The notes below the pieces were generated by a model. It was given only the letters and a program-made list of their open reading frames with translations. It searched no databases and was not told the origin of the DNA. Positions 28,625 to 63,546 of a stretch of DNA of 64,000 bases are shown here, piece after piece. Location: IMG/VR virus record IMGVR_UViG_3300037492_000170, positions 58,745 through 122,744 of that record; one strand, written 5' to 3'. The stretch comes from a virus (lineage: Duplodnaviria; Caudoviricetes). Position 1 is the first letter of the stretch; the number at the start of each line of letters is the position of its first letter. A program made the position numbers and the translations under genes.

Positions 28625-29076
28625 TACGCGGTTAACCTCAGAATTGTAACTGCAATTGTTGCATTATATGGTAAAAGAGTATCTGGGTTAGCTAAAGTTT
28701 TGTAGTGTACATCCACTTTATCTACTACACCATATATTGATAATGAAGCACCTGAAATAAACATAATCTTCGGTGGTCTCTTAACATTGCCACCAGATTC
28801 AGTAGTATCAGCTAACGCTATAAGACTATCTGCAAAACCTCGAACAAAGAAATCAGAGTTATTATCCCTAGAAACATCTATGGAAAAATGCACTATGTGG
28901 CTTGAACCACATGTATATTGTAAGAACGGCTCGTTATTACCAGCTGCTTTCATAGGATGCCACTGAGCTGACCTTGAATATTGAATGGTTGCTGGGTTCC
29001 ATTGAAAAATAACCGGGGAAGCCCCACCATCGACTGGTATTATCATACCTTTAGTAAAATTAGGTGAGTATGGCAT
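28624..29076 (-). CDS. Tail tube initiator/CIS tube-like protein
   Basis: FQWNP.TI...W...PFLQY...RPP...G...V. Confidence 0.7.
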   Translation of the reverse strand: MPYSPNFTKGMIIPVDGGASPVIFQWNPATIQYSRSAQWHPMKAAGNNEPFLQYTCGSSHIVHFSIDVSRDNNSDFFVRGFADSLIALADTTESGGNVKRPPKIMFISGASLSIYGVVDKVDVHYKTLANPDTLLPYNATIAVTILRLTA

Positions 29077-31940: not shown

Positions 31941-32199
31941 TTTTCCTCTTCTTTTTAGCCTCTTTTTTCTCGAACTCTATCTGAGCTAGGTACTGTTTCC
32001 ATGTATCTTTTCTTACTGAGCTGGGCCAGGACATAATATCATTCTTGCTTTCTTTCATGTGCCACTCAAGATTAAACACATCTTGATTGAATCCTTTAAG
32101 TGTTTCATAAACAAGTGGGCACCATATTGAAGCATCTCTATAACCCCATTGTACAAACTCACCAGCCACCTGGCGAGCTAGCCCGTTGGAAATAAAAAA
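31933..32199 (-). CDS. Tail assembly chaperone extension (T-like), probably reached by -1 frameshift
   Basis: In the -1 frame of 32178..32885 at T TTT TTA; W..S.NDIMSWP...R motif; immediately upstream of the tape measure gene. Confidence 0.6.
   Translation of the reverse strand, partial: FFISNGLARQVAGEFVQWGYRDASIWCPLVYETLKGFNQDVFNLEWHMKESKNDIMSWPSSVRKDTWKQYLAQIEFEKKEAKKKRKSA
32156..32199 (-). promoter_or_regulatory. Programmed -1 ribosomal frameshift signal
   Basis: Slippery heptamer U UUU UUA (32199-32193) in frame; downstream hairpin CUCGCCAG-GUGG-CUGGUGAG. Confidence 0.65.
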
Positions 32200-32885
32200 T
32201 CCGGGTGTGTAAGCACATTCACCAACGCGGGAGAACTGCACTTAGGGCACACCAACTTAGCCACAGAATCATAACCACATACTAATTTACTTCTAGCCTT
32301 TCTTATTGCTCTATGATCAGCAGAAGGGAATTTAACAACATCTTCATATGAAAAATCATTAGAGCCATCAATAGACCTAATACTCTGAAACTCACTCTGA
32401 TTAGAGTCCACGCCGGTATCCAGTTGAGATAAAACAATAGCTTCTTTGTGTCCGGTAAGTAGACCAAATACAATTTTCTTCTTAGTCTTTGGAAGTGTAA
32501 TCTCAACCTCCGGGTCCGCTTTATTCTCTACATCTGGATATGTAAACTTCATAGATTTAAGTGGAAACTCGTGTGGGGAAACTTCTCCACATACGTAACA
32601 CATATTGTTGAACTCAAATACTTCACCATAATTAATCTTGTAGCCCTCTATTAACAAATGGTCCTGATCTGGAACATATAAATCTAATATGTGATCGGTG
32701 GTAACTTTCCTCAAACTACCGATTGATTGAACAAGAACTGCTAGGTAATCCACTATCAGTTCATACATTTTTTTATTTCTTTTGAGAAGCAGTCTATCAG
32801 CGTATCCATCAGTTTCCTGAATAACGACATCTTTTCCGTTTAACGGGAGTGTAACTGTTTTCTTCTCAAGTACATAATCAGACAT
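32178..32885 (-). CDS. Tail assembly chaperone (T4 gp26-like, two CxxC motifs)
   Basis: TVTLP...L.VPD..LL...NYG...CYVC; ITLP...CPKC; follows the tail tube gene. Confidence 0.7.
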   Translation of the reverse strand: MSDYVLEKKTVTLPLNGKDVVIQETDGYADRLLLKRNKKMYELIVDYLAVLVQSIGSLRKVTTDHILDLYVPDQDHLLIEGYKINYGEVFEFNNMCYVCGEVSPHEFPLKSMKFTYPDVENKADPEVEITLPKTKKKIVFGLLTGHKEAIVLSQLDTGVDSNQSEFQSIRSIDGSNDFSYEDVVKFPSADHRAIRKARSKLVCGYDSVAKLVCPKCSSPALVNVLTHPDFLFPTG

Positions 32886-32903: not shown

Positions 32904-33386
32904 CTAAGATATAATTCGCATAGTCCTTGATTCATATGCGATTTCTAACTCTTCAATAACATTAGCAGCTTCACCCAAAGAATGCCTATCCCCTAATGTA
33001 AAGCTAACAGGAAAACCACGTTTATACTCCCACACTCTGGAGGGGTCGCCGCGCGGATCTAACTCATATAAAGTAAAATTCTTTGTATAGACAGATGGGA
33101 CGTTACCATTACCAGTAACCGGGTCTTGACACAGATTCATCCAATCTTCGAAATAAACCCTTCCAGGTCCATCCAAAGGAGCCACTATACCAAGAGTACA
33201 GTTACCATAAGTGAGCATCCCTACTTCTTTAGCCGGGTGGTTTTGCCCAGCCCCTGCGTGCTGGGTAACACTATTTGTACGAACCCCAGGATTAAAGTGC
33301 TGCACTAAAGCAGCCGGAAGTCCATTAATCTCTAATCTAAACTTAAATTGCTTCAACACACTAATTGCTGCAGCTTCTACGGGCAT
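32904..33386 (-). CDS. Tail tube protein (T4 gp19-like)
   Basis: FKFRLEING...G..TYGN.TL...FEDW...LD..G...R.W.....P...IEELEIAYE. Confidence 0.85.
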   Translation of the reverse strand: MPVEAAAISVLKQFKFRLEINGLPAALVQHFNPGVRTNSVTQHAGAGQNHPAKEVGMLTYGNCTLGIVAPLDGPGRVYFEDWMNLCQDPVTGNGNVPSVYTKNFTLYELDPRGDPSRVWEYKRGFPVSFTLGDRHSLGEAANVIEELEIAYESRTMRIIS

Positions 33387-33491: not shown

Positions 33492-34529
33492 TTAACTAAT
33501 CCTATTCTTCAACTCCTCTACCCGTAGACAACCGCAAGATTTGGAAGAGCCCCTCTTCAGGTTGTTTAAAAGAACCTCGGTAACCTTACCACAATCGCAC
33601 TTACATAACGCATATGTGAGATACTGTTTTCCGTTAGATTTTCTGCATGTATTTACTACGGTTAATCTACCAAACCTAATTCCTGAAAGGTCTTTCAACT
33701 TAGAACCTTGAGGGATATTATACTTAGTACCTGGTTTAGTTCCGGGCGTGTGCGCGTTAGGGTCCAATATCTTCTCGGGTGGGTCCCCCCGTTCATACCT
33801 GTTCTTTAATAACTGATACGAAACTCCAAGCTTCTCTGCCCACTCTCCTATAGTCCGTGACTCGCCGCCATATGTAAGAATGGTATTTTTAATATCCCTA
33901 GTCTTGTTGTCAAGTGTGTTCTTAGATAGAACCTTATCTACAGAAAACTTCGACCTTGACCTTATTCGTTTATGAATAGTAGTGGCTGGAATATCAAGTT
34001 GCTTTGCCCAATCCTCTACAACACGAGTCTCTCCTTTATATGTCAACTTACGATTCGTACGTTTGTTCCTTGCCTGTTCTCTTAGGCTTTCGTACCTACA
34101 GTTCTCTGGAGAATACCCCAAATCATTATCTTTCCTACCTAATGTCTTTCCATCTGGGCATATTCCCATATCTTCAAAGAAGTTAGCGAAGCCGTCTTCC
34201 CCATCCCACCTATCACAAAAGGTTATCCCTCTCCCTCCATAATTTTTATACTCTTTTCTGTTAGGATTTCTGCATCTAGCACGCGCCCCTTCCCATATCG
34301 TATATTCCTTCTGGTATATACTGTCTTTTGCCGCCCCGCCGTGTTTCACATTAGCGCTGCACCCACAAGAGGTGGATTTACCAGTTCGTACTGAATAAGA
34401 ATCGACGAGTCTCTCTGTTCCACACTCACATACACACTTGTAAAAATAACGTGTAGATGTCCCCATAACCTTCTTAATGACACCAGTCACTTTCCATTTC
34501 CCAAATTTTGTTCCGGCTTTATTTTCCAT
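33492..34529 (-). CDS. Free-standing HNH-like endonuclease between sheath and tube genes
   Basis: CVCECG..SCGC; YGGRGITFCDRW; TLGRKDNDLGYSPENCRY; two HTH-like repeats; a second CKCDCG..SCGC module at the C-terminus. Confidence 0.8.
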   Translation of the reverse strand: MENKAGTKFGKWKVTGVIKKVMGTSTRYFYKCVCECGTERLVDSYSVRTGKSTSCGCSANVKHGGAAKDSIYQKEYTIWEGARARCRNPNRKEYKNYGGRGITFCDRWDGEDGFANFFEDMGICPDGKTLGRKDNDLGYSPENCRYESLREQARNKRTNRKLTYKGETRVVEDWAKQLDIPATTIHKRIRSRSKFSVDKVLSKNTLDNKTRDIKNTILTYGGESRTIGEWAEKLGVSYQLLKNRYERGDPPEKILDPNAHTPGTKPGTKYNIPQGSKLKDLSGIRFGRLTVVNTCRKSNGKQYLTYALCKCDCGKVTEVLLNNLKRGSSKSCGCLRVEELKNRIS

Positions 34530-34689: not shown

Positions 34690-37326
34690 TTATCTTCGAA
34701 TCCAACCCGGCAGTTCCTTTAACTCTGTGTAGGTCTCGAAAGCCTCACCCGTTCTAAGTACACCTAACTCAAACTCTAGGTAGTAGATAGTTCTGGTAGG
34801 CTGTATAAGTGCCCTACAATGGTAAATTCCTCTATCAATATCAAGTCCTGAGTTGATAACGGCATTCTTAAGTACTCCACCATCAAACCAGGCATCACGG
34901 TCGGTCTGCAACGCGTAGTCATAGATATCATACTTATTCTTCCAATCATCAAAAGCAGGTTCAAGAGTTCTATGAATCTCTCTCCAGGTTACAGGATGGT
35001 TAGGCTCAAACAAGAAGGTTCTCAGTATCGGCATAAGCATCCTGTTCATAACCGTAATAAACCTAACAACATTAAGTTCTCTCAATGCGGAAGGTGCTCT
35101 CTGTGTAGTTCTCTGCTCCCAGAACATCGCGCCCTCGATACCTACGTATCTAGATATCATCAGGTAATTGATGCCGTTCTCTGCAAACAAATCAGAGTAA
35201 CCTGTAGTCCTGTTAGTTTGGATATCAAAATCCAAATCCTCAACAAGTGTTACCACACCTCGTCTGGGTCCAACAGGAGCGTGACTTGAACCGTAATCAT
35301 TATCAGTCCTACATAAACAAGATGCTAGATGCCCAAGGTTGGAAACCCACTTCCTAGTATCATCCAAATCATCATAAACCAACGGGCGACCGTACCACAA
35401 AGAGAACCTATGACTATTGAAAGCCGGATGGCTCCAAGGGGCTCCACCTAGTCTCCAGGTCACTGCTTCTTCAGGACGCAATCCGTAAGGCACCATCCCA
35501 TACCCTAACATATCGGCTCTATCCTCACAGTATACAATCATCGCTTGATAGACCGTAGCAGAGGTAGTACCTGGAACCATAAGATCCATACTCATATGAG
35601 CAGTATCTGCAGCATAAATTCCGGTTTGTGAAGGAGAATCACCTATCCAATCGGAATCATCAAAATCATCAAGCCCGTTAAACCCACCTGTGAGAGCAAC
35701 ACCCAGTGTCTCATCAGAAAGTTCTGGTCGATTAAGCCACCCAACTTCTGTATAAAAATCATTTGAAGAACTTTCATCAGTCACTATTACAAGTGTAGAC
35801 CTTTCATTAATGTAGTTAACAAAATATCTCTGAGATGTTGGGTCCATGCTAAGTGTTGGGAACCACTCTTGCATGGCACTTTGTCGAAGATAAGAAACCT
35901 TTACATCAAAACTACCTCTTGAATCAAGCGCAGAATCGTATATAAACACTCTAAGGTCATCGCCCCAATCTCCTGGGTCTTTTGATGTGAATGTTGCAGT
36001 GTCTTCCTGTACCCCTTCATACCCGAGAACTTCTGTAGTTATAAACCCTAATTTTATAGCTGAGGATGACTCAGATTTAATTTGTACAGAAGAGTCATCA
36101 CCAGAAGCTACAGTTCTAAAAGCTAGTTTACCATCTACGGACAGCACAGTAGCCCCTTCTAATCCTGCCTCGTTTATTTGAGTAACTAACTGAGCAGAGG
36201 TCAATCTAAAAGAAGAGCCCGGTGATGTAGAGGGGCTTCTTTCATAAACACCTTCTACAAATCCTAATACAGTATAACAATGAAGAGCTACTGTCATTAT
36301 CTCTATATCATCTGCTACATTTGTAGCAAATACTCTAATCTTATCTGTACTTGTAGCCACGGCACTAACGTCATCAATAGCTGCAATTTCTTCCGCTATT
36401 TGTGTAGCAGTTCTTTGAATACCAGCAGTTAATGTTATAGTAGTGGGACTCCCCCACTCTCCATTATGCCTGACCCTAATTTTAAACTTATCATTCTCAG
36501 TATCCGTCGCTTTAATAACAAACGGACCAGCAACAGTACCAGTTGTCCTACCAGATATAGTTGAATCATAAGCAAAGGAAAAATACTGATCTGCTCCACC
36601 ATCTATGGATACAATTAGTTCATCTTCCCCAACGATATGCATATACTGTCCCATAGTGACACCAATAGTGCTATAAACATCATCAGCAACATCCGATATC
36701 TCTAAATCATCGTCAGGGTTATCAGTAAATATCTTTACATGCCCGTGTATAGCTTCCGCATTTATACCTGTTGCTGCTGCTATTTCAAGAGCAATCTGTG
36801 AAGCAGACCTCGTTGTACCTTCAGTTAATGTTATAGGTAAAGCACTTCCCCATGTTCCTTCATGTCTGAGTTTAGCCGAAAACTTTTTGTTGTCTGCTGT
36901 TATCTCAAACGGTCCTTCAACAGTACCAGTTACATGCCCACCAAAACTCTGAATAAATGTGTAAGGACCAGTTCTTCCTTCAACATAAGCATGAGTTATA
37001 GCGTTACCTCTATCCGGGATAGTAACAGTAGCTGTAGTTGCAGTTAATGTGGAGGCATCAGAAGTTACGTCATAATGCGCCGTACGTATAAGATTCAAAC
37101 GCGCACCTTGTCGAAGTGCCATTTCACAAACCAACGGATCATTTGTATATGGAACTTTCAGCCCATATGTTCTACGATAGTCATCAAGTGATGTTACAGT
37201 CATTGGAGCACCAACAGGTCCGCGTTCTGCTTGAATAACCATAGTAACATAACCCATAGCTACGGCATCGACAAACATTGAAAGGTCGTTTATAGTCCAA
37301 ATTACTCTAGCAGTGCCTAGTGTCAT
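34690..37326 (-). CDS. Contractile tail sheath protein
   Basis: AERGPVG, DPGDWGD, LTGG, NGINY, ELNVVRF, FLFEPN..TW. Confidence 0.9.
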   Translation of the reverse strand: MTLGTARVIWTINDLSMFVDAVAMGYVTMVIQAERGPVGAPMTVTSLDDYRRTYGLKVPYTNDPLVCEMALRQGARLNLIRTAHYDVTSDASTLTATTATVTIPDRGNAITHAYVEGRTGPYTFIQSFGGHVTGTVEGPFEITADNKKFSAKLRHEGTWGSALPITLTEGTTRSASQIALEIAAATGINAEAIHGHVKIFTDNPDDDLEISDVADDVYSTIGVTMGQYMHIVGEDELIVSIDGGADQYFSFAYDSTISGRTTGTVAGPFVIKATDTENDKFKIRVRHNGEWGSPTTITLTAGIQRTATQIAEEIAAIDDVSAVATSTDKIRVFATNVADDIEIMTVALHCYTVLGFVEGVYERSPSTSPGSSFRLTSAQLVTQINEAGLEGATVLSVDGKLAFRTVASGDDSSVQIKSESSSAIKLGFITTEVLGYEGVQEDTATFTSKDPGDWGDDLRVFIYDSALDSRGSFDVKVSYLRQSAMQEWFPTLSMDPTSQRYFVNYINERSTLVIVTDESSSNDFYTEVGWLNRPELSDETLGVALTGGFNGLDDFDDSDWIGDSPSQTGIYAADTAHMSMDLMVPGTTSATVYQAMIVYCEDRADMLGYGMVPYGLRPEEAVTWRLGGAPWSHPAFNSHRFSLWYGRPLVYDDLDDTRKWVSNLGHLASCLCRTDNDYGSSHAPVGPRRGVVTLVEDLDFDIQTNRTTGYSDLFAENGINYLMISRYVGIEGAMFWEQRTTQRAPSALRELNVVRFITVMNRMLMPILRTFLFEPNHPVTWREIHRTLEPAFDDWKNKYDIYDYALQTDRDAWFDGGVLKNAVINSGLDIDRGIYHCRALIQPTRTIYYLEFELGVLRTGEAFETYTELKELPGWIRR

Positions 37327-37620: not shown

Positions 37621-38268
37621 CTATTCAGTAGTTATATCAAACTCAACGTCTGTTGTGGGGGTAGACGTATAATGTTCAATTCTATCTAACCATAAATCTA
37701 ACACGGCTAAAACATAAGCACTGCTAAAAACAGGCTTTTCTAGTTGATCCATGCCTAAAACCTTCTCGAATACGAACAATCCGTATTGTGATTGGTCTAT
37801 ATCCGGTATCTGAGATTGAAATCCAGGCGGAAATATTTGAAACATCATTTCCGTCAACCAATCATGCTGCGCCTTATCTGTAGCCATTGTAAACATTTCG
37901 TAATATAAATTTATTGGTGTGGGGTATGGTTTTCTAGTAAATCCATCTGGACCTGTTGCCACACCTCCGCCCATAATCTGTGGAATATCGACACTAATCT
38001 CTGTATCGCTAGGAACAAATACTTCGTGTCCAACCCTAAAACTTATAAGTCTGTGTTCAACGTGAGTACGAACAAATGCAACAGATGGATACAAAGTCTC
38101 ATTTTTTTCCCTATCCGGCATATATTCATAAACCTTCACTGGTCTGTAATGTACGCCTTGTGCTCCAGCAGGTAAAGCTACAGCATAGTTGAATTTTACC
38201 AACTCAAGTCTGCTTTTTATGAATGCATCCACGTACTGTAACACTACTATCGCATCCTTTCGGGCCAA
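37621..38268 (-). CDS. Putative tail terminator/completion protein
   Basis: YPSVAF...PTPINLYYE; synteny. Confidence 0.55.
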   Translation of the reverse strand: MARKDAIVVLQYVDAFIKSRLELVKFNYAVALPAGAQGVHYRPVKVYEYMPDREKNETLYPSVAFVRTHVEHRLISFRVGHEVFVPSDTEISVDIPQIMGGGVATGPDGFTRKPYPTPINLYYEMFTMATDKAQHDWLTEMMFQIFPPGFQSQIPDIDQSQYGLFVFEKVLGMDQLEKPVFSSAYVLAVLDLWLDRIEHYTSTPTTDVEFDITTE

Positions 38269-38861
38269 GCCCGTTTAGCCCAATTACCATATATGCCTTT
38301 AGGAGGAGCGCCCTGTAAACGAAATCTTTCCCTCATATCGGAAATCTTACCATATATCGCTGGTGCTCTAGCTGCACCTCCAAAAAATCCTTTACCTTGT
38401 TCGGCAAGTGTTAATACTCTGTTGATGCCGCCTCGACTGCCAGCAAAACCAACTCCACCTATGCTTGCAATAACTGCCGCTTTCACAATCGCCGCTGCCT
38501 CCGGCATACATTTAGCAACCGTGGGCCAGAGGAAAGGTCTTGCTGGCATTCTACCAGTGCCCATTTCATGATAAACAGCATAATCAGCACCAACAACCAC
38601 ACTGGCTGACATACCACCACCAGGAACAGCCATTATACTACCAATCAAGCCTCCAGTACGATTCAAGGTTGCAGGTCCGCCTTCTTTAAGCGGTGCCCAT
38701 CCTTCACCGCCCTTAGATATAAAATTCCTAGTCTCTGCGGCTATAAACTCCACTGCATTAAGAATACCGGCTTTACACCCAGCTCTTGCGGCTGCGGGTA
38801 TCTTTCTTAAATCTCCGAGAGCTGCGGTTAACCCCTGAATGTCGAACTTAAGTGCTAGCAT
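38247..38861 (-). CDS. Tail completion/virion morphogenesis protein (HK97 gp10/P2 gpS-like)
   Basis: WAPLK...L.RTG.L..SI...YAVYHEMGTGRMPARPFL. Confidence 0.8.
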   Translation of the reverse strand: MLALKFDIQGLTAALGDLRKIPAAARAGCKAGILNAVEFIAAETRNFISKGGEGWAPLKEGGPATLNRTGGLIGSIMAVPGGGMSASVVVGADYAVYHEMGTGRMPARPFLWPTVAKCMPEAAAIVKAAVIASIGGVGFAGSRGGINRVLTLAEQGKGFFGGAARAPAIYGKISDMRERFRLQGAPPKGIYGNWAKRAWPERMR

Positions 38862-39323
38862 CTACCAATCACCAAACTTAAATTTCTCACCTGTTGAAGC
38901 AGCGGGGATGACGTGTTCTAACGCTTCCGCCTTTCGCGCAAAGCAAGTTGTTAGAAGGTCAGTAGCTCCTACTAGTGGTGAATGCTCAGTCTGAATTCCT
39001 GGGAACTTCTCTGTTAAATCATAACGGATATCATTCCAGATGAAATGACCTGCATAATCCAACCCGGTGGTACCAAAAACAGCGGTAATTGCAGAGGTTT
39101 TAAAACAAAATCTAACCAAATCCATTTCAGTTACACCACCAACACCAACGCCATATCCTAATCCCTCACGAACGAACCTAAGATTCTCAGCCATAACATA
39201 GCCTTTAAAGACATATTCTGTTCCTGTAGGGGACACATAAGTTATATCCGAAGAAGCAGTGCCATCAAAAACACTCTCTATTATAGTTTTAACTTGTGAG
39301 CCTATACTGTTCCAATTGGTCAT
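38862..39323 (-). CDS. Putative head-closure protein
   Basis: Synteny and size. Confidence 0.5.
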   Translation of the reverse strand: MTNWNSIGSQVKTIIESVFDGTASSDITYVSPTGTEYVFKGYVMAENLRFVREGLGYGVGVGGVTEMDLVRFCFKTSAITAVFGTTGLDYAGHFIWNDIRYDLTEKFPGIQTEHSPLVGATDLLTTCFARKAEALEHVIPAASTGEKFKFGDW

Positions 39324-39931
39324 GCTACATAATCCGGAGAATCAAGCAAGGTAGTGGCAGTAACAACTCTGGTTGCAAAAGTTCCTCCCCTGAACTGAGC
39401 AAGGTATGGTTTTAACAACATCCAGATAGGTGCTCCATAAGCTTTCATAGTTTTATACAGCAATGGTTTGTTTACAGAAGTCTGTTCCTTAATTGTGGCT
39501 GCGTCCATAGTATTCTGAAGACCAACTTCCAATATGCCCATAATCTTAACACTTTTAACAAGTGCATTTTCAAGTAGAATATCGCCGCCTACGGCTTGTT
39601 CATCTATGTTAGCTATATTCTTATCTATAACAAGACAAGCTGTTAATGCCTGTGCTTGTTTTACAGCATCTGGAATCTCAGTAACATCAAGTTGACAAGA
39701 GCGAGGAAAACAAAGCGCCTGATTTGCATATACTAAGTTGCCACGCAAAGGGAATGTACCCATAAACTGAGCAGCAACTCTAAGTCTGAACTCCTTAGCT
39801 AAATCTTCGAAATTCAGCCAAGTGTCTAAGTAAGCTTCGTCGATACCAATATTCTGTAGAAAATCATCAGCATCTACAGCTTCTATAAAACTATCAGCAT
39901 ATGCTCCGCCAACTGTAGTATCTACAAACAT
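39320..39931 (-). CDS. Head-tail adaptor (DnaT-like phage family)
   Basis: ADSF...AD.F...QAL.FPR...IPDAVKQAQ...LLKPY. Confidence 0.7.
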   Translation of the reverse strand: MFVDTTVGGAYADSFIEAVDADDFLQNIGIDEAYLDTWLNFEDLAKEFRLRVAAQFMGTFPLRGNLVYANQALCFPRSCQLDVTEIPDAVKQAQALTACLVIDKNIANIDEQAVGGDILLENALVKSVKIMGILEVGLQNTMDAATIKEQTSVNKPLLYKTMKAYGAPIWMLLKPYLAQFRGGTFATRVVTATTLLDSPDYVA

Positions 39932-40186: not shown

Positions 40187-41176
40187 TTAATAAATACCTG
40201 TTACCTGAACCACACCATTTTTGTCTTCGATTTGTAAGGCTATGCGAAGCGTAAGAACTATGATGATAACACGAGCAGAGATGTCCTTGTCAGTTTCTAC
40301 CATAATCCTACGCTGAATACCCATAATAAGGTTCTTTGGGTCGCAGAATAATGTGGTACCATCGGGCATAAGCGAGCACGGTCTGATTGTGGTTCCAAAG
40401 ACCTGAAGTGCATCATTGTAAGTTGCACTAAGTCTAATGTCACCAAGACCAGTCAATCTCTGACCAAGATACTTTGCATAATCAAACTCAAGTCTATGTG
40501 AAGTATATATCTTCATAGCTGACTTAAGGCGCTGATATCTAGTCGGAAGTGTACTAATGCTATATGCAAACACGTTCTCGTCAATTGACGGAGCCGTGGC
40601 ATAAGCACAAGTATAAGCATCAGCCAGCTTCAAGATTCCATCCTGAGCCAATCGCATATCAGTAGCCGACCAATGTGTATCGGACACCGGTTCGGCATCA
40701 TGTTTAATGTGATGAGTTTTATCGCCGGTAAGCAGAAGCTCTTCGAGTTCATACGAAACTTTCTGAGTGACTAGTTCCATAACAGTCTGCTCAAACCTTC
40801 CACCCTCGATGTTGTCTTCTAACACGTCGTAAGGAATACGCACTTCAGCTACTAGTTCCTGAGTATCAAGGTCAACGTAGCTAGTCGTAGGCGCAGCATA
40901 GTCACTAGATGCCAACGGAGTAATACTCCCGCCGGGCTTGTGTAGCAGCGTATCGGACATAACTATCTTGTTAAGACGCATAGAAGGTCCGCTCATTGTT
41001 ACTGTGCGAATCTCGTTTAGGATAGTAGGCTGGTCAACAATCATTCTGATGAATCTATCAGCCTGTTCCCTGTTAAGTAAACCACCACCAGCTCCACCAG
41101 AGCCGATGAGGTCGGTAGTCATGAAGATAGAGCCAGCGGCTCGTTCAACCATGTCTTGTGTGTTCGGTCTTGCCAT
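40187..41176 (-). CDS. Major capsid protein (HK97 fold)
   Basis: GGLLNREQADRFI...EVRIPYDVLEDNIEG...LEELLLTGD...DGILK...DPKNL. Confidence 0.9.
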   Translation of the reverse strand: MARPNTQDMVERAAGSIFMTTDLIGSGGAGGGLLNREQADRFIRMIVDQPTILNEIRTVTMSGPSMRLNKIVMSDTLLHKPGGSITPLASSDYAAPTTSYVDLDTQELVAEVRIPYDVLEDNIEGGRFEQTVMELVTQKVSYELEELLLTGDKTHHIKHDAEPVSDTHWSATDMRLAQDGILKLADAYTCAYATAPSIDENVFAYSISTLPTRYQRLKSAMKIYTSHRLEFDYAKYLGQRLTGLGDIRLSATYNDALQVFGTTIRPCSLMPDGTTLFCDPKNLIMGIQRRIMVETDKDISARVIIIVLTLRIALQIEDKNGVVQVTGIY

Positions 41177-41204: not shown

Positions 41205-42320
41205 TTACGCCAATGCAAAAAGACCCTTGAACACATTATCGCTGTCACGGTCTTTTCTTGTAACTGGTTCTTTATCCTCAGTAATTCTACTAATAGACAC
41301 ATCTTCCTCTTCGAACTTGGTGAGTCTCTCTTCAAGTTCCTTTATTTTAGCCTCAAGTATTTCAACACCATCGACCTTAACTTCTACCACTGTATCAACC
41401 GCTGCCTTCACTTCCTCCACAGGCGGGGGGGCAAGTTTCTCAGAAAGTTGCTCAACAACCTTCGCCATTGCAGTTTCTAGTCTCTCATCAAGAGCCTTAC
41501 CGATAGCATCGGGCAGACGTGTTTCCAGCAACTTTGAAAGCTGCTCTGAAGGATCAGTAGTAATCTCTTCAGTTCTCTCAATAACTTCTTCCATTTGTAT
41601 AACCTCTTCAGTTTTTTTTAGCGAGTCCATTGGATTGGATTCAAATCTGAGCGCAATGCCCTCACCAGAATTATCCAGTCCCATACTCACATAGGTACTA
41701 AAAGCATCAAGAGCGGACGCAACCGACTTTTTCTTGCTCTTAGAATCTAAGCTACTCATACTAAGTGTGCTAATAACATTAGTCACAAGTGAGTCTAATT
41801 CACGTAATATAATATCACCAAATGTCACAACGAATCCGTTAGAATCTATTCCAACTGTTGAAGCCATAGAGTTTCCCCTTACAGTTACAGCTTTTGAATC
41901 AGACTCTAGTAATTCACCAACTAATGCGAGCGCCCCACCCTCAAGCCTTTCCATATAGAAAGACCCTTTATTGAAAGCATCCATTGGTCGATGATTAAAC
42001 TTTTTATAAAAATCAAACTCCTCCACCCTCTGAACTTCCATATCATGTAACCAAACAAGTTTCTCCTTCAGTTCGTCAATGTTGGAAGTAGAAGGGACTA
42101 AAACACTTTGAATCACATCATTCATTCCTTTTTCCCCTCTTTTGTTTTTATCTATATTCCTAACAGTCCACTGAGCACGTTCTTCATCTTCTCTGACAAT
42201 TTTAAAAGGCAATCTGTTACTACCGTGGTCGACAAGCGATACAAACTCAACATCAAAATCTGTAAGGTAGTTTACAAACTTGCTCTCTTCCACAGTATTC
42301 TCGTCAATAACTTTACTCAT
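41205..42320 (-). CDS. Scaffold protein with an N-terminal protease-like strand motif
   Basis: L.DFDVEFVSLVDHGSN; acidic coiled-coil C-terminus ending FKGLF; directly upstream of the capsid gene. Confidence 0.65.
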   Translation of the reverse strand: MSKVIDENTVEESKFVNYLTDFDVEFVSLVDHGSNRLPFKIVREDEERAQWTVRNIDKNKRGEKGMNDVIQSVLVPSTSNIDELKEKLVWLHDMEVQRVEEFDFYKKFNHRPMDAFNKGSFYMERLEGGALALVGELLESDSKAVTVRGNSMASTVGIDSNGFVVTFGDIILRELDSLVTNVISTLSMSSLDSKSKKKSVASALDAFSTYVSMGLDNSGEGIALRFESNPMDSLKKTEEVIQMEEVIERTEEITTDPSEQLSKLLETRLPDAIGKALDERLETAMAKVVEQLSEKLAPPPVEEVKAAVDTVVEVKVDGVEILEAKIKELEERLTKFEEEDVSISRITEDKEPVTRKDRDSDNVFKGLFALA

Positions 42321-42927
42321 TTACAACCCCACAACTGCAAGTAAATCTATGACTATGGTCTAACTCTATCTCAGTGGCAGTGGACAGTAATACTTCATGC
42401 ACATGACGCATAGCTTCTGAGGACCAGGTAGGTATAACCTTGCCGTCCTCATCAAATACTATATGAATCACGTGTGAATGTTTATCTATACTTTCGGATA
42501 GGTTCAGTTCTGTTTCTACGTCTAATTCTGTTGTTCTTGTTAAATCAACATAGGTTTTAGTTTCATCTGAAAAACCAGCTATCGAGTAGCCATTGTATTC
42601 GCCTCTTAATACTTTATCCCAAATAGCGTCGCCTACGATTTGTGTTCCGAGAACCCAAGACCCTGTATAAAATTCGTCCGGGTCGTTCTCCCTCGCTATA
42701 AATGATTCAATCACGTAACAGCCGGATTCTTTCCAAGAATGTTGCTCATCAATCCGATTCACATACCCTTTTTTCATAAAATCATAGGCGACGCGTTTAA
42801 TCTCATTAGCGGTCATAGTAGTCCCATGCGAATCAATAAAACCAGGACGATATACTTCACCGAAAACAATGCGCTCATAAGTGTCTCTAACAACTAGGCG
42901 CTTGTTTTTGTCGGGGCTACTACTCAT
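42313..42927 (-). CDS. Prohead serine protease (XkdF-like)
   Basis: RIVFGEVY.P...DSHG...IDEQH...ESFIAR...GSWV...W..V..GEYNGYSIAG; His-rich C-terminus. Confidence 0.8.
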   Translation of the reverse strand: MSSSPDKNKRLVVRDTYERIVFGEVYRPGFIDSHGTTMTANEIKRVAYDFMKKGYVNRIDEQHSWKESGCYVIESFIARENDPDEFYTGSWVLGTQIVGDAIWDKVLRGEYNGYSIAGFSDETKTYVDLTRTTELDVETELNLSESIDKHSHVIHIVFDEDGKVIPTWSSEAMRHVHEVLLSTATEIELDHSHRFTCSCGVVNE

Positions 42928-60026: not shown

Positions 60027-60033
60027 AAAATTT

Positions 60034-60094
60034 GGAGTATCACATCCATTCAACCTTCTCCTCCCGAATGGGGACACCCGGATGATGATACTCC
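60034..60094 (+). terminator. Branched hairpin after terL (terminator or cis-regulator)
   Basis: GGAGTATCA/TGATACTCC outer stem, inner CATC/GATG and CATTC/GAATG, followed by CTTTTCTCTTTT. Confidence 0.5.
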
Positions 60095-60115
60095 CTTTTC
60101 TCTTTTGGAGGCATA

Positions 60116-60397
60116 ATGGCAATTGAAGTATCAATTTTGGATGAGAATGAAAATGAAACAATACTAAAGGAGGCACAAGTGACTGAAAACTTGCCGGTAG
60201 TAGTGAAAGGTAAATTCCCTAGTCTGCAAGAACAGCTTAAACAACAGCTTAATGCTGCTCACCAGAGATGTGTAGAGGCTGGCAGGGTAATTCAACGGGC
60301 TGCAGAAGAGCGCGCAGAGTTGTGGGAGAAAATGGCGGATGAGAGTAAGGCTGCTTTGAAAAGAAACGTGGATGATTTCAACAAATTTGAGGGCTAA
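60116..60397 (+). CDS. Hypothetical coiled-coil protein
   Basis: SD GGAGG. Confidence 0.65.
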   Translation: MAIEVSILDENENETILKEAQVTENLPVVVKGKFPSLQEQLKQQLNAAHQRCVEAGRVIQRAAEERAELWEKMADESKAALKRNVDDFNKFEG

Positions 60398-60610
60398 ATG
60401 ATTATCTTAAAAAAATGTGTATGCAATAGTGCCTTCCAAGACGAAGAATACGGCGAAAACATACGTGTTCACAACATGTGTAACCCGGCGGGTAACAAAT
60501 TTACCAAAGCTGGGTGTTCGGTATGTGGCAGAGTCAAAGACATTGCCGCAGTCTCAATGGCAGATGATACAAAACTTTCCAAGAAAGAGAAAAAGAAGGG
60601 TAAAAAATGA
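60398..60610 (+). CDS. Small Zn-finger-like protein
   Basis: CVC...QD..YG...RVHN...CSVCG. Confidence 0.6.
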   Translation: MIILKKCVCNSAFQDEEYGENIRVHNMCNPAGNKFTKAGCSVCGRVKDIAAVSMADDTKLSKKEKKKGKK

Positions 60611-60885
60611 TACCTACCCCAGTGGAACTACTAGGACCGAATTTTGATGCCGGTATAGTAGAAAAATACATAGACCAGATTGAAGCGCAGATGTGGAATA
60701 GAAGGGGTAGGGATATGAGCTTATATATAGTAGTCCCTTCCGAGGAGCATCATGTAATTAAGATAATACAGGAGTGTATAGAGTTAAAAGGGTGGACTGT
60801 AACTGCGACTGGTATAGGAACATCGAAAGATCCGCCAGGAACACATATCGAATATGTTGTGAGACCCTCACGACCTAATGTATAA
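60607..60885 (+). CDS. Hypothetical protein
   Basis: ATGA coupling. Confidence 0.55.
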   Translation: MIPTPVELLGPNFDAGIVEKYIDQIEAQMWNRRGRDMSLYIVVPSEEHHVIKIIQECIELKGWTVTATGIGTSKDPPGTHIEYVVRPSRPNV

Positions 60886-60894
60886 GGAAGTAAA

Positions 60895-61299
60895 ATGACC
60901 CATTTAGAACAACTTAGAGACGGAATACAACAACTAGTAGACAGTGATGGTCATTCTGATTGTTTTTTTAAAGAAAAACTCAACAGAATAGTAGAAATCG
61001 GTCCAAAAATCTGTGAAGATGAGGGAATGATAGCAGAAGTATGGGTACCCGCCGAGGTAAAAAAGAATATGCGGTTATCAGCAGACGCATTCAGGACTGA
61101 ACTAGATAAATTATCTATTCAGAAGATGTCATATGAGTTTGTTGACTATATGGTAGAGTGGAATGCCGGTAAGTTAGTGCTTGAAGACCTTGCATTTGAA
61201 TTAAAGGATGGCGAACCTGCCAAACATATTGGTGTAATTCATTTTCATTGGTTTCCATTATGTAAATATGACGAATGGGGGGGATATAATGAAATGTGA
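60895..61299 (+). CDS. Hypothetical protein
   Basis: 134 aa with SD. Confidence 0.6.
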   Translation: MTHLEQLRDGIQQLVDSDGHSDCFFKEKLNRIVEIGPKICEDEGMIAEVWVPAEVKKNMRLSADAFRTELDKLSIQKMSYEFVDYMVEWNAGKLVLEDLAFELKDGEPAKHIGVIHFHWFPLCKYDEWGGYNEM

Positions 61300-61540
61300 A
61301 ACATGTATGTTTGCAACTAAAGCTAATCAACCGCAATATTACATATACTGTGTCAGGTATCCAAGGGTAGAGCAGAAAGAGAGAGGTACGTGGTGTGGGG
61401 AATGGCAGAATAAAATGAGTTTTGAGGATGTGCCGCGTCCACCAGAAAGTGCGTCTGGGTGGGTGGGAAGAAAGGAGCACGTTGGCACTACACTCTCCGA
61501 GCGATTCTTCAAATGGTTTCAAAGAAGGGGAGAGAAATGA
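61289..61540 (+). CDS. Small Cys-rich protein (start at MKCETC)
   Basis: CETC...C.RYP...WCGEW motif. Confidence 0.55.
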   Translation: MKCETCMFATKANQPQYYIYCVRYPRVEQKERGTWCGEWQNKMSFEDVPRPPESASGWVGRKEHVGTTLSERFFKWFQRRGEK

Positions 61541-61701
61541 CATTTGAGCAAAAGTGGGAAGAGTTGGAGCTTCATATCCAGCGAGAGATTGATGAGTGTG
61601 AGCGTATAGTAGCTAGGGATGACGATGATTGTTTTTCATACGGAGCACTCTCTACTTACATTAGGCTCAGAAAAGAGATGGAGAAAATAAGCGAATGGTA
61701 A
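61537..61701 (+). CDS. Small hypothetical protein (start at MTFEQKW)
   Basis: ATGA coupling; loosely resembles the next ORF (E.KW.EL.L.I). Confidence 0.5.
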   Translation: MTFEQKWEELELHIQREIDECERIVARDDDDCFSYGALSTYIRLRKEMEKISEW

Positions 61702-61886
61702 CATCGGAAGATAAATGGTCTGAACTAGCGTTAGAAATAATACATCAAAAGTTTGAGCTTATGAACTCGATAACAGAAACAGAGATGGATAGAGACCTAG
61801 TAACCGTGAAACTAGGTGAGCTAAAAGCATTTACATTTTTACAAGTACTTATGGAAGAACTGGAGAAAGAATATGGAGAGGCTTAA
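61695..61886 (+). CDS. Small hypothetical protein
   Basis: 63 aa, overlapping neighbours. Confidence 0.5.
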   Translation: MVTSEDKWSELALEIIHQKFELMNSITETEMDRDLVTVKLGELKAFTFLQVLMEELEKEYGEA

Positions 61887-62253
61887 AGAGTTCAAATTCC
61901 GGTTTGACATGCCAGGATTCTCAACATCACTTGTGCAGCAATACAGTATCACATTTGATGATTCATGGCTCCGCTCGAATAGAGTGAGAAAGGCTGGGAC
62001 ACTAGCACTGACTTACCTCGTTGCTTGCACGGATGAATGCACTATCTTCCAAGATTGGCAGGATAAAGGTTATATAGCCAACATCTCACTGCTTGACCTA
62101 GATGCAGCCGGGACACCAATACGATGTATGACTTTCAGAGATTGTAAAGTGACAGAGATATACTACCCGTGGAGAAACGCAGAAGGTGATGGTGATTATT
62201 TCAATCGGGTGTATTTTAGATTCAAACGAATAGATACCAAATGTATGTTATAG
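61873..62253 (+). CDS. Truncated tail-tube-like (gp19 fold) paralog
   Basis: Colinear with 32904..33386: LKEFKFRF..G...LVQ / FQDW / N.SL..LD..G.P.R. Confidence 0.65.
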   Translation: MERLKEFKFRFDMPGFSTSLVQQYSITFDDSWLRSNRVRKAGTLALTYLVACTDECTIFQDWQDKGYIANISLLDLDAAGTPIRCMTFRDCKVTEIYYPWRNAEGDGDYFNRVYFRFKRIDTKCML

Positions 62254-62262
62254 GAGGCTAAG

Positions 62263-62463
62263 ATGTTAGTACGCGCAAGATACAAAGAAGGTTATAATCC
62301 AGGAATAGAAGTGGTTATGGATATGAGCATAGAAGAAGCGGAAGTGTTCCACTATATAATGGACTGTGAGGTAGAACGTAACCTTACCACAACGGCTGAT
62401 TTTGCACAAGAGATACTAGATGTTTTATTAGTAGCAGAGGAAGACATAAAAGAATGGAACTAA
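62263..62463 (+). CDS. Small acidic hypothetical protein
   Basis: SD AGGAGG. Confidence 0.6.
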   Translation: MLVRARYKEGYNPGIEVVMDMSIEEAEVFHYIMDCEVERNLTTTADFAQEILDVLLVAEEDIKEWN

Positions 62464-62822
62464 CACAATCTGATGAGTTCATTAAAGCTATTAACGGAGA
62501 GAAGGTATACACATACTACTTCGATGTGTTCTGGGATGTAAAAGAAAACACGATAATATTATCCCCTGCCAGGTCTGAGCATGAGTCTATGGCTGATTGT
62601 GGAGTGACCGGATACCGGAATGGAGACTCCTGGCATTTGCGAGTAAAAGAAACTAGCGCATCGGCAGCAATGAAGAAAGCAAAGCTGCGGCTTGCAGCAC
62701 ACATTGGCGCGTTGGCGCAACGAGTAATGGGTGCAGTGCCCGATGACCCATCCACACACATGGGAAGCGAGGGTACAAAGTTTCCAGGATATGAATGGGT
62801 GGATGAGGTATTCTCAGCATGA
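62454..62822 (+). CDS. Hypothetical protein
   Basis: 122 aa, coupled to the methyltransferase gene. Confidence 0.6.
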   Translation: MELTQSDEFIKAINGEKVYTYYFDVFWDVKENTIILSPARSEHESMADCGVTGYRNGDSWHLRVKETSASAAMKKAKLRLAAHIGALAQRVMGAVPDDPSTHMGSEGTKFPGYEWVDEVFSA

Positions 62823-63544
62823 GACTTTCTTTAATTCCATACTTTGGCGGGAAAGGAGCAATCTATAAATGGATACTGGCAAACTTCCCAGAACACGATT
62901 ATTTGGTTGATGCCTTCGGCGGGAGTGGTGTTATTATCTTGAATGATAATGTGCCAGGGTTGTATAACGAAATAGACCCAGACCTGTTCTGGATGATGAT
63001 AAACATCAAATGGGCATGTGCCCAGTTTGTAGATAGATTGCGGGAAGTAGAATATTGTGAAAGCACTTGCAAGTCCGCTAGCAGATATTTTAAATTGGCG
63101 GAAGGAAGTTTTGACAGGTCGGTAGCCTACTATACGTGGCAACGAATGCGATATGCTGGCGGAGAAGCTGCCGGTAGAGGATTCAAATGGACTGGTAGAC
63201 AGACATGGGAAAACATGCTGCTAAAGTTGCCGGTAATCGCCCAGCGGTTGCAGAATATAACCATATCCAACAAAAGTGCGCTAGACTTGTTACCGCTTAA
63301 TCCTGCGGTCCAGCGGGGTAAAAAACCGCTAATATACCTGGACCCACCATATCCTAGCGAGTTGAGAACAAGAGGGTTGTACAAATACGAGTTCGACGAG
63401 CATGAGAAGCTAATGAAGCTGGTAGAACCCTACGCATTTGTGTTGTCAAGCTATGATAGCACGCTTCCTTACCCACACGTTAAGAAACCGACCAGAAACC
63501 AGAACGGCAAAGCCAGAGAAGAATACCTCTACATCCACGCCTGA
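62819..63544 (+). CDS. DNA adenine methyltransferase (Dam/D12 class)
   Basis: PYFGGK, DAFGGSG (motif I), YLDPPY (motif IV). Confidence 0.85.
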   Translation: MRLSLIPYFGGKGAIYKWILANFPEHDYLVDAFGGSGVIILNDNVPGLYNEIDPDLFWMMINIKWACAQFVDRLREVEYCESTCKSASRYFKLAEGSFDRSVAYYTWQRMRYAGGEAAGRGFKWTGRQTWENMLLKLPVIAQRLQNITISNKSALDLLPLNPAVQRGKKPLIYLDPPYPSELRTRGLYKYEFDEHEKLMKLVEPYAFVLSSYDSTLPYPHVKKPTRNQNGKAREEYLYIHA

Positions 63545-63546
63545 AA

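What the first reader, a model, noticed from the sequence alone, without database searches (positions are those of the whole stretch)
61873..62253. Loop-deleted tail tube paralog among the small early-type genes
Seen: colinear similarity to the tube gene (LKEFKFRFDMPGFSTSLVQ vs LKQFKFRLEINGLPAALVQ; IFQDW vs YFEDW; NISLLDLDAAGTPIR vs NFTLYELDPRGDPSR). It lacks most of the N-terminal arm and about a dozen residues in each of two loops. It is 28 kb from the tail module, on the opposite strand. Known: the N-arm and long beta-hairpin loop mediate ring stacking in gp19/Hcp-fold tubes. Inference: a non-polymerising tube mimic that could cap or poison tails of competing phages, tailocins or T6SS, or decoy host sensors of tail proteins.
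Basis: partly seen in the sequence, partly recalled or inferred. Interest (0 to 1): 0.75.

Follow-up and report, generated by a model that had tools for sequence, protein, structure and literature searches.

The report
Shortened spare copy of tail-tube gene
An uncultured freshwater phage carries, far from its tail genes, a small but well-kept extra copy of its tail-tube protein that has lost the parts that stack tube rings, so it is probably not a building block of the tail; what it does is untested.

Summary
ORF 61873..62253 (+, 126 aa) is a true, colinear, much diverged relative of the phage's own gp19-type tail tube gene (32904..33386, -, 160 aa). BLASTP gives E 1e-7; the two are reciprocal best hits among 797 open frames; hhalign gives E 5.7e-6. 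Two predicted models, one independent of my alignment, have the tube/Hcp fold. Against the tube it lacks 7 N-terminal residues, about 12 residues of the long beta-hairpin including its conserved tip, and 13 residues after the helix. All 62 tubes of the clade are 154-178 aa.

The gene is functional: dN/dS is 0.116, and 0.058 outside the hairpin remnant. It is also accessory. It is the 8th ORF (my ORF choice, no gene caller) of a packed cluster of small ORFs ending in a Dam methylase. Its flanks are mosaic. One natural variant has deleted all but its last 48 nt. Only five variants, at least 86% identical, turned up among 1.84 billion representative proteins.

Best reading: a non-stacking tube-core mimic that acts in the infected cell, not a part of the tail. 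Its target is untested; capping, poisoning and decoy roles remain speculation. It is a new variant of a known kind, of moderate interest.

The parts
61873..62253 (+). CDS of the 126-aa shortened tail-tube paralog (P0002); its ATG overlaps the end of the upstream ORF by 14 nt, with GGAG 8-12 nt upstream
61951..62007 (+). codons 27-45: remnant of the beta2-beta3 hairpin tip. This is the low-confidence loop of the model and the variable hot spot (11 of 19 columns vary against 12 of 107 elsewhere; dN/dS 0.58 against 0.058)
32904..33386 (-). the phage's tail tube gene (P0001, 160 aa, PF06841), the paralog's only detectable relative in the genome
34690..37326 (-). tail sheath gene, marking the tail module (an HNH endonuclease ORF 33492..34529 lies between sheath and tube)
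28624..29076 (-). 150-aa ORF in the tail module with a weak CIS_tube match (24.2 bits, below the cut-off of 27). It is probably a tube-fold initiator and is not similar to the paralog by BLASTP
60116..63544 (+). cluster of 11 tightly packed or overlapping ORFs by my ORF choice (no gene caller; overlapping alternative frames exist). Ten are of 63-134 aa with no family match; the last is a D12-class Dam methyltransferase (62819..63544). The paralog is the 8th
60034..60106 (+). terminator-like stem-loop plus U-rich tract after the 664-aa gene; it may set the small-ORF cluster apart as its own transcription unit
   Evidence: dG -27.3 kcal/mol, z -2.9; 1 of 200 shuffles folds as well

Best explanation
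ORF 61873..62253 encodes a functional, lineage-restricted, shortened paralog of the phage's own gp19-type tail tube protein. It keeps the beta-sandwich plus alpha-helix core that forms the wall of a tube ring. It has lost most of the N-terminal arm, about 12 residues of the long beta-hairpin including the conserved tip, and the 13-residue loop after the helix. In solved myophage tubes these parts join ring to ring and relate to the sheath.

The gene arose from a tube gene of this clade. Whether that was a recent duplication followed by a burst of change, or an older event, cannot be told.

Shown: homology, predicted fold, the deletions, purifying selection, an accessory and mosaic location, and loss in a natural variant.

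Inferred: the protein cannot stack into a tube or carry a sheath, and it is made from a cluster of small ORFs rather than with the tail genes. On that basis it would act inside the infected cell as a soluble monomer or single ring that mimics the tube core. Its likely partner is something that recognises tube protein: a host sensor, a tail-assembly-blocking defence, or a competing tube assembly. It would not be a building block of the phage's own tail.

My odds: real functional paralog about 0.9; non-virion mimic or conflict role about 0.45; within that, decoy or sponge for a host factor about 0.25 and assembly poison about 0.12.
For: Homology: BLASTP E 1e-7; reciprocal best hits among 797 frames; hhalign E 5.7e-6.

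Fold: AF2 with a 14-row alignment gives pLDDT 79.3 and pTM 0.74. Foldseek against the PDB gives 42 matches at E<=0.001, led by PVC, Afp and AlgoCIS tube proteins and Hcp. Foldseek against BFVD gives 70 matches at E<=0.001; every named one of the 50 listed is a tube, tail-completion, tube-initiator or baseplate protein or an uncharacterized one, and about half of the 50 carry no name. Independently of my alignment, the ESM Atlas's own model (pTM 0.67) has gp19-family neighbours at TM 0.75-0.80 over 115-122 residues.

Lost parts. The hairpin-tip motif is kept in 77-100% of 62 tubes (G45, G47 and N49 invariant), and all 62 tubes are 154-178 aa. In P1 the hairpin plugs into the N-terminal rim of the next ring and the O-loop relates to the sheath (PMC10304247, passages). 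The hairpin is the interface between stacked rings (PMC13581612, passages).

Functional: against the one independent DNA lineage (L020-L023, identical to each other) dS is 0.66, dN 0.076 and dN/dS 0.116, which is among the lowest of six neighbouring genes (0.11-0.97). All five protein variants are 126 aa with no frame breaks. GC is 42.3% against 41.7% for the window.

Accessory: the flanks are mosaic, since L023 and a contig of run X4 join 60605 to 61873 and keep the gene. A 57.6-kb contig of run X5 joins 60629 to 62206, removing all but the last 48 nt of the gene. Exhaustive phmmer over 1.84 billion representatives found only its own cluster plus one repeat-protein hit. No second tube-like frame was found in 5 of 5 related viral records (37-53% complete), nor in the 6 kb after the 664-aa homologue in the nearest of them.

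The usual tail roles have candidates in the late module: Ad1-type adaptor, tail completion/Neck1, sheath, tube, gp48/54-like and a weak CIS_tube ORF.
Against: There are no expression data of any kind, no virion proteomics and no known host. The AF2 fold rests on an alignment in which 12 of 14 rows are tubes; single-sequence AF2 failed (pLDDT 40.1).

dN/dS rests on one independent lineage pair. The deletion variant is read from one Logan contig laid at under 95% likeness, which I could not fetch. Absence from relatives rests on fragmentary contigs and on a protein library without genomic context.

Some chains among the Hcp matches are listed at 116-126 residues (these may be modelled parts only). 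So small size alone does not prove that the protein cannot form rings or tubes. A decoy for hairpin-binding sensors is contradicted by the loss of the hairpin tip. An assembly poison would be expected to hit the phage's own tube, since its identity to all 12 tubes compared is alike (21-25%).

The variable hairpin remnant may reflect relaxed constraint rather than an arms race (dN/dS 0.58 is below 1). The mapping of the third deletion onto P1's O-loop is by order of elements, not by a structural alignment.
Confidence: 0.45

Rival explanations
1. It is an optional or minor virion or tail-assembly component. Examples would be a single tube-fold ring at one end of the tube (cap, adaptor or plug) or a helper of tube initiation, encoded away from the tail module.
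For: Tube-fold proteins routinely serve as initiators, terminators and adaptors. BFVD matches include 'tail completion', 'head-proximal tip of tail tube' and 'baseplate tail tube initiator' proteins. PDB matches include cap and baseplate tube-fold chains of PVC and Afp. Strong purifying selection on the core fits a structural contact. A ring that ends a tube needs only one stacking face. Structural and replication genes are not cleanly separated by strand in this genome: the portal lies beside the DNA polymerase.
Against: One natural variant lacks the gene. No homologue was found beyond the species-level cluster, although 58 tube clusters of the clade are known, some on contigs of 123-139 kb. 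Adaptor, tail completion and initiator candidates already lie in the late module. The gene sits among unannotatable small ORFs with mosaic flanks.
Confidence: 0.22
2. It is a dominant-negative poison. The protein would enter or cap growing tube rings of co-infecting phages, host tailocins or T6SS through the retained lateral or one axial face, and stop elongation because the stacking parts are missing.
For: The core is retained while the axial elements are lost. Blocking of tail assembly is an established conflict strategy among prophages and satellites: Tab (PMC10884400, abstract) and Tai (PMC11364771, abstract and passages). The gene is accessory and its locus is variable.
Against: Nothing suggests it would spare the phage's own tube, because its identity to all 12 clade tubes compared, its own included, is 21-25%. 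Tab and Tai were described in prophages and satellites that protect a host, whereas this is a 122.7-kb phage with no lysogeny evidence examined. No hydrophobic or signal segment is present, so it cannot reach incoming tails.
Confidence: 0.12
3. The fold has been taken over for an unrelated job. One example is an Hcp-like single ring that chaperones or carries a small partner protein, or binds nucleic acid; another is a metal- or redox-dependent function using the newly gained cysteines.
For: Hcp chains are among the matches with the highest TM by query in the PDB search (0.66-0.68). The paralog gained charge (pI 7.56 against 5.78). It has five cysteines (CxxxC and Cx5C plus C124), invariant in 5 of 5 variants, against two in the tube. 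Its neighbours are small proteins of unknown function.
Against: No partner is identified and no T6SS-type genes were seen in the parts annotated. Whether the cysteines lie close together in space was not examined, because no coordinates were available to me.
Confidence: 0.16
4. It is a decaying duplicate without function.
For: It is shortened, highly diverged, restricted to one lineage and deleted in one variant.
Against: dN/dS is 0.116 at dS 0.66, and 0.058 outside the loop. The 126-aa frame is intact in all five variants and four metagenome loci. The model is well ordered.
Confidence: 0.03

Closest known systems
gp19-type tail tube proteins of myophages and contractile injection systems (Pfam PF06841 Phage_T4_gp19; this phage's own P0001)
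   Same: Detectable sequence homology to a member, the same order of strands and helix, and the same predicted beta-sandwich plus helix fold.
   Different: It does not reach the Pfam, PHROG or NCBIfam models. It is 126 aa against 154-178 aa in 62 of 62 clade tubes. It lacks the N-arm, the hairpin tip motif and the post-helix loop. It is not next to the sheath gene. It is dispensable in a natural variant.
Specialised tube paralogs inside tail modules: T4 gp48/gp54, Afp5/Afp7, and the tandem TTP1-3 of Vandenendeviridae (PMC12846349, passages)
   Same: They are duplicated and diverged tube genes with 24-29% identity between copies and nearly the same fold.
   Different: Those copies are adjacent in the tail module, full length or longer (159-174 aa in phage Adele), stably inherited across a family and presumed to be virion parts. 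This one is 28.5 kb away on the other strand, shortened, confined to a species-level cluster and sometimes lost.
Hcp of type VI secretion
   Same: The same fold class; a tube-fold protein that exists as free single rings and can act as a chaperone (the chaperone role is recalled, not from a call). Hcp chains are among the matches with the highest TM by query (0.66-0.68).
   Different: There is no sequence match and no T6SS gene context, and the gene is phage-encoded. Ring formation by P0002 is untested.
Tail-directed conflict systems: Tab and Tai tail-assembly blockers with their counter-defences (PMC10884400; PMC11364771), and host sensors of tube protein, DSR2 with its inhibitor DSAD1 and Avs16 (abstract starts in the search listing; PMC13581612, passages)
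   Same: These show that tube protein and tail assembly are real targets in phage-host and phage-phage conflict, and that the counter-measures are small accessory phage genes in variable loci.
   Different: I saw nothing in the passages or abstracts read that describes any of these proteins as a tube homologue. P0002 has no PADLOC match, and I did not compare it with their sequences. The link is by analogy only.

Membership tests
Phage_T4_gp19 / CIS tail tube family (PF06841) | Scores above the family's curated HMM threshold | tested here: not met
   P0002 has 0 Pfam families at E<=1, while the phage's tube P0001 scores 38.2 bits against a cut-off of 28.2. P0002 also has no significant PHROG hit (best E 0.087, an unrelated family) and no NCBIfam hit.
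Phage_T4_gp19 / CIS tail tube family (PF06841) | Significant homology to a bona fide member | tested here: met
   BLASTP E 1e-7; reciprocal best hits among 797 frames; hhalign E 5.7e-6.
Phage_T4_gp19 / CIS tail tube family (PF06841) | Beta-sandwich flanked by an alpha-helix (tube/Hcp fold) | tested here: met
   These are predicted models only. AF2 with the alignment gives pLDDT 79.3, and Foldseek returns tube and Hcp matches. The ESM Atlas's own model has gp19-family neighbours at TM 0.75-0.80.
Phage_T4_gp19 / CIS tail tube family (PF06841) | Extended N-terminal arm and long beta-hairpin that stack ring on ring | tested here: not met
   Seven N-terminal residues and about 12 hairpin residues, including the conserved tip, are missing. 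Their role is taken from PMC10304247 and PMC13581612 (passages).
Phage_T4_gp19 / CIS tail tube family (PF06841) | Polymerises into the tail tube of the virion | not testable with these tools
   This needs virion proteomics or in vitro assembly.
Tail-module tube paralogs (initiator, terminator, TTP1-3 type) | Encoded within the tail or baseplate gene block and conserved across the phage family | tested here: not met
   The gene is 28.5 kb from the tube on the other strand, among small ORFs. No homologue was found outside a cluster of at least 86% identity. It is absent from 5 of 5 related, incomplete records and deleted in one variant.
T6SS Hcp | Sequence membership and T6SS gene neighbourhood | tested here: not met
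   There is no Pfam or NCBIfam hit. The neighbours are phage replication genes, small ORFs and a Dam methylase. Only the fold is similar.
Known anti-phage defence or tail-assembly-blocking proteins | Match to a model of a known defence protein | tested here: not met
   PADLOC-DB gives 0 families for P0002 and for 9 of 9 neighbouring small ORFs at E<=0.1. That library dates from 2023, so Tab and Tai may not be in it, and they were not compared directly.
Anti-defence decoy of a tube-protein sensor | Binds and blocks a host sensor without activating it | not testable with these tools
   The host and any sensor are unknown. The loss of the hairpin tip argues against Avs16-type targets.

The most novel reading that the evidence does not exclude
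A lytic phage has turned a copy of its own tail tube protein into a soluble weapon or shield by trimming it. The trimmed core can no longer stack or hold a sheath, but it still looks like tube protein. It would either soak up a host factor that recognises or blocks tube protein (an immune sensor or a Tab/Tai-like assembly blocker) or cap the tubes of rivals. The fast-changing hairpin remnant would be the contested surface. This would be a first case of a virion structural fold recycled as a self-mimic in the tail arms race.
Probability: 0.3. Interest if true: 0.75.

Novelty: new variant of a known kind. Interest (0 to 1): 0.5.

Why it matters
Tube-fold duplicates are well known as neighbours in tail modules, where they build special rings. 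This copy is different. It has been stripped of the ring-stacking and probably sheath-related parts, moved among accessory genes, kept under strong selection, and yet is expendable in nature. That pattern marks a new function for an old virion fold.

Host sensors (DSR2, Avs16) and assembly blockers (Tab, Tai) are now known to aim at tube protein and tail assembly. A phage-made tube look-alike is therefore a concrete and cheap candidate for a counter-measure or a competition factor. It is a 126-aa protein that can be synthesised and tested.

Six literature searches turned up no description of such a distal, trimmed tube paralog.

The limits are that the phage is uncultured, known only from lake and sediment metagenomes, that its host is unknown, and that the gene is confined to one species-level lineage.

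Tried and rejected
- **Single-sequence AF2:** pLDDT 40.1, unusable.
- **Complex prediction, tube alignment plus paralog alignment:** no verdict (scores 0.09 and 0.00, mark 0.32; controls not run). This says nothing either way about binding.
- **RNA evidence:** no RNA holder is listed among the 13 runs found. Parts of the stretch without contig cover in runs X2-X5 are not interpreted.
- **Collections with no relative of P0002:** INPHARED phages by megablast and tblastn; the IMG/VR pattern scan, where 10 stretches matched a pattern and 0 were confirmed.
- **Family libraries with nothing for P0002:** Pfam, PHROGs, NCBIfam and PADLOC.
- **P0004:** 718 aa, E 1.2e-4, eight stretches each matching only query residues 14-34. 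I treated it as a repeat-protein artefact, not a relative.
- **Promoter and terminator consensus scan of 57000-64000:** fewer promoter-like sites than in shuffles (8 against 15.1) and none on the + strand inside the cluster, so it is uninformative.
- **Origin of the paralog:** in a 65-row ML tree the three paralogs sit on a 3.4-substitutions-per-site branch at the unresolved base of the tube clade. The AU test does not reject placing them with the phage's own tube group (p 0.169; the group was named after seeing the tree). So recent and old duplication cannot be told apart.
- **Are the deleted segments the most conserved parts of the tube?** Only the hairpin tip is (0.78 against 0.64 mean column conservation). 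Taken together, the deleted segments are not (0.60 against 0.64).
- **PDB sequence search with the tube profile:** only weak hits, gp54 at E 0.0016, so the deletions could not be mapped residue by residue onto a solved tube.
- **The 664-aa upstream protein:** a weak terminase-like PHROG hit only (6.4e-4), with nothing in Pfam, the PDB or NCBIfam. It is left unnamed.

Full report
**Setting.** The window is bases 58745-122744 of a 122,744-base IMG/VR virus record rated 99% complete.
- The minus strand of window 1-43000 carries virion genes: head protease 42313..42927, major capsid 40187..41176, Ad1-type adaptor 39320..39931, tail completion/Neck1 38247..38861, sheath 34690..37326, an HNH endonuclease 33492..34529, tube 32904..33386, a gp48/54-like protein 32178..32885, a weak CIS_tube ORF 28624..29076, and baseplate wedge genes.
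- From 43580 the plus strand carries replication and recombination genes: a DnaB-like helicase, a Toprim protein, a ResIII/DEAD-type helicase, RecA, an endonuclease I-like protein (27.0 bits, below the cut-off of 29.1), a PD-(D/E)XK nuclease, a RusA-like resolvase and an AAA ATPase. A 664-aa protein with only a weak terminase-like hit follows.
- A terminator-like hairpin follows that gene (60034-60094, dG -27.3 kcal/mol, z -2.9).
- Then come eleven tightly packed ORFs, 60116..63544, by my choice among listed ORFs. No gene caller was run, and overlapping alternative frames exist.
- Ten of them, of 63-134 aa, have no family match in PHROGs, Pfam or PADLOC. ORF 60116..60397 was scanned against PADLOC only. 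The last is a D12-class Dam methyltransferase.
- The finding is the eighth of these ORFs. The contig ends in a 25-bp tandem repeat.
- Strand is not a clean guide to timing, because the portal lies beside a DNA polymerase on the minus strand in the other half of the genome.

- The 126-aa product (P0002) and the 160-aa tube (P0001; PF06841 at 38.2 bits, cut-off 28.2) align colinearly. BLASTP gives E 1e-7, 26% identity over 114 columns and 30 gap columns.
- Among all 797 open frames of at least 50 aa in the genome, each is the other's best non-self hit (E 5.6e-5 and 2.7e-4). The next hits have E of 0.36 or worse.
- A profile of seven tubes aligns 100 columns with the paralog at hhalign E 5.7e-6.
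- MAFFT with 12 tubes carries the alignment through to the last strand.
- The paralog itself reaches no Pfam, PHROG or NCBIfam model.

**Fold.**
- Single-sequence AF2 failed (pLDDT 40.1).
- With the 14-row alignment (2 paralogs and 12 tubes) the model has pLDDT 79.3 and pTM 0.74. Its order of elements is b1, b2, a 13-residue low-confidence loop (29-41), b3, helix (58-65), b4, b5, b6.
- Foldseek against the PDB gives 42 matches at E<=0.001, headed by PVC, Afp and AlgoCIS tube proteins and Hcp.
- Foldseek against BFVD gives 70 such matches. The 50 listed are 139-372 aa. Every named one is a tube, tail-completion, tube-initiator or baseplate protein or an uncharacterized one, and about half of the 50 carry no name.
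- That model depends on an alignment made mostly of tubes. The independent check is the ESM Atlas, whose own model of this exact sequence (pTM 0.67) has gp19-family neighbours at TM 0.75-0.80 over 115-122 residues.

**What is missing.**
- Against the tube, the paralog lacks 7 of the first residues. It lacks about 12 residues of the b2-b3 hairpin: MAFFT places gaps of 7+5, while hhalign places 12+5 offset by a 5-residue insertion. It also lacks 13 residues between the helix and b4.
- In 62 tubes of this clade the lengths are 154-178 aa. The hairpin-tip motif (HAGAGQN in the phage's own tube) is kept in 77-100% of them, with three invariant positions.
- In phage P1 the tube protein is a beta-sandwich with a flanking helix, an N-terminal domain, an inserted long hairpin and an 'O-loop'. 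The hairpin 'plug' of one ring inserts into the N-terminal 'rim' of the next, and the O-loop changes where sheath contact is lacking (PMC10304247, passages).
- By order of elements the three losses correspond to rim, plug and O-loop. That mapping is my inference, not a structural alignment.
- Caveat: some Hcp chains among the matches are listed at 116-126 residues (these may be modelled parts only), so small size alone does not exclude rings.

**It is a working gene.**
- Four metagenome loci (L020-L023) carry a version that is 87% identical in protein (88% over the 119 residues that L023 holds) and 85% in DNA. They are identical to each other in the gene, so they count as one independent lineage.
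- Nei-Gojobori gives dS 0.66, dN 0.076 and dN/dS 0.116. This is among the lowest of six genes in the neighbourhood, which range from 0.11 to 0.97.
- Five protein variants exist, all 126 aa. Of their 23 variable columns, 11 fall in the 19 residues 27-45 (Fisher p 2e-5). There dN/dS is 0.58, against 0.058 elsewhere.
- So the hairpin tip, the best-kept part of the tube, has become the freest part of the paralog. This means either relaxed constraint or a contested surface, and the data cannot say which.
- The paralog also gained charge (pI 7.56 against 5.78). It has five cysteines, invariant in 5 of 5 variants, against two in the tube.
- Its GC content matches the genome.

**It is an accessory gene.**
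- The flanks are mosaic. L023 and a contig of run X4 join 60605 directly to the paralog's ATG at 61873, dropping five small ORFs but keeping the paralog.
- L022 and run X5 replace 20 nt between 62822 and 62843 with about 526 other letters.
- A 57.6-kb contig of run X5 (depth 25.7) joins 60629 to 62206, removing the small ORFs and all but the last 48 nt of the paralog. The remnant points to deletion rather than original absence.
- That contig was laid at under 95% likeness and I could not fetch it, so this rests on the tool's table alone.
- Beyond this cluster of at least 86% identity, an exhaustive phmmer search of 1.84 billion representative proteins found nothing except a repeat-protein artefact. 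The word-indexed search of 5.8 billion found only P0003.
- By contrast, the tube has 58 clusters of relatives at 41-95% identity, some on contigs of 123-139 kb.
- In 5 related viral records (37-53% complete), P0002 hits only the tube gene itself in 4 and nothing in 1. In the record with nothing, whose tube is 65% identical to this phage's, the 6 kb after the 664-aa homologue hold other small ORFs.
- No cultured relative exists in INPHARED. The only tube match there is Microcystis phage Mel-JY01 at 28.8%.
- DNA holders are lake-water and sediment metagenomes.

**Origin.**
- Identity of the paralog to all 12 tubes compared is 21-25%.
- In an ML tree of 65 rows, the three paralogs sit on a branch of 3.4 substitutions per site at the unresolved base of the tube clade.
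- Forcing them next to the phage's own tube group costs 9.06 log-likelihood units and is not rejected (AU p 0.169; the group was chosen after seeing the tree).
- The narrow distribution, together with a present rate only modestly above the tube's, makes a lineage-specific duplication followed by a burst of trimming and change the simpler story. This is inference.

**Mechanism.**
- Shown: homology, predicted fold, the deletions, selection, and accessory status.
- Inferred: without rim, plug and O-loop the protein cannot extend a tube or seat a sheath, and the late module already has candidates for adaptor, tail completion and initiators. So it is more likely a soluble tube-core look-alike acting in the infected cell than a tail part.
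- The partner is open. Tube protein and tail assembly are known targets of conflict: DSR2 and Avs16 sense tube protein (abstract starts in the search listing, passages). Tab and Tai block tail assembly and are countered by small phage proteins.
- A sponge or decoy for such a factor is my leading guess. However, a sensor that grips the hairpin tip is an unlikely target, because the tip is gone.
- A poison of rival tubes is possible but would need a way to spare the phage's own tube, and nothing shows one.
- The highest 19-residue hydropathy mean is 1.15, so I see no export signal. Action on incoming tails outside the cell is therefore unlikely.

**Comparison and novelty.**
- Duplicated tube genes are known as adjacent, full-length, stably inherited tail-module genes, such as TTP1-3 at 24-29% identity (PMC12846349, passages).
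- I found no description of a distal, trimmed, accessory tube paralog in six searches or in the anti-defence catalogue preprint (passages). The library is incomplete and supplements were closed.
- From memory only, and checked by no call: staphylococcal islands encode a capsid-protein homologue that redirects helper capsid assembly. That would be the nearest precedent for a structural-protein look-alike used in conflict.

**Verdict.** This is a new variant of a known kind, of moderate interest.

Noticed in passing
window 33492-34529 (-): An HNH endonuclease ORF (phrog_374, E 2.8e-68) sits between the sheath and tube genes. This looks like a homing-endonuclease insertion in the tail module, similar to the GIY-YIG insertion at the same junction reported for phage Adele (PMC12846349, passages).
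   Followed up: no
window 63726-64000: A GC-rich 25-bp tandem repeat of about 11 copies (91% matches) runs to the very end of the contig. It probably explains why the assembly stops there. Runs X2 and X3 show loose ends at 63528 and 63564, so variants differ after the methylase gene.
   Followed up: partly
window 62263-62463 (+): The 66-aa ORF just after the paralog is only 54% identical to its counterpart in L020, with dN/dS about 0.97. It is by far the fastest-changing gene of the cluster, and it sits next to one of the slowest.
   Followed up: partly
window 60605-61873 and 62822-62843: There are population-level indels. One form joins 60605 to 61873, dropping five small ORFs (L023, run X4). 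Another replaces 20 nt before the Dam methylase with about 526 other letters (L022, run X5). dS between lineages ranges from 0.08 to 1.05 from gene to gene, which suggests recombination mosaics.
   Followed up: partly
window 61873-62253 (+), codons 52, 56, 85, 91, 124: The paralog has five cysteines (CxxxC, Cx5C and one near the C-terminus), invariant in 5 of 5 variants, where the tube has two at other positions. They may form a metal or disulfide site.
   Followed up: no
window 58032-60026 (+): This is a 664-aa protein with a GKS P-loop-like motif. It is conserved at 62-99% in three viral contigs. It has only a weak terminase-large-subunit PHROG hit (E 6.4e-4) and nothing in Pfam, the PDB or NCBIfam, so its identity is open.
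   Followed up: partly
window 60034-60106 (+): A strong stem-loop followed by a U-rich tract lies after the 664-aa gene (dG -27.3 kcal/mol; 1 of 200 shuffles folds as well). It is a likely terminator separating the replication genes from the small-ORF cluster.
   Followed up: partly
L028 17047-18753 (-) and L028 18750-20000 (-) (genome 37047-41311): The portal gene lies directly beside a large DNA polymerase ORF on the same strand, and a ribonucleotide reductase lies further along the 'structural' strand. Structural and replication genes are therefore interleaved in this genome.
   Followed up: no
L029 15846-17042 (-) and 17432-18835 (-): Two neighbouring ORFs both match the same tail-protein family (phrog_11262, E 1.7e-55 and 7.5e-48). 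This is a second case of duplicated tail genes in this phage, here in tandem.
   Followed up: no
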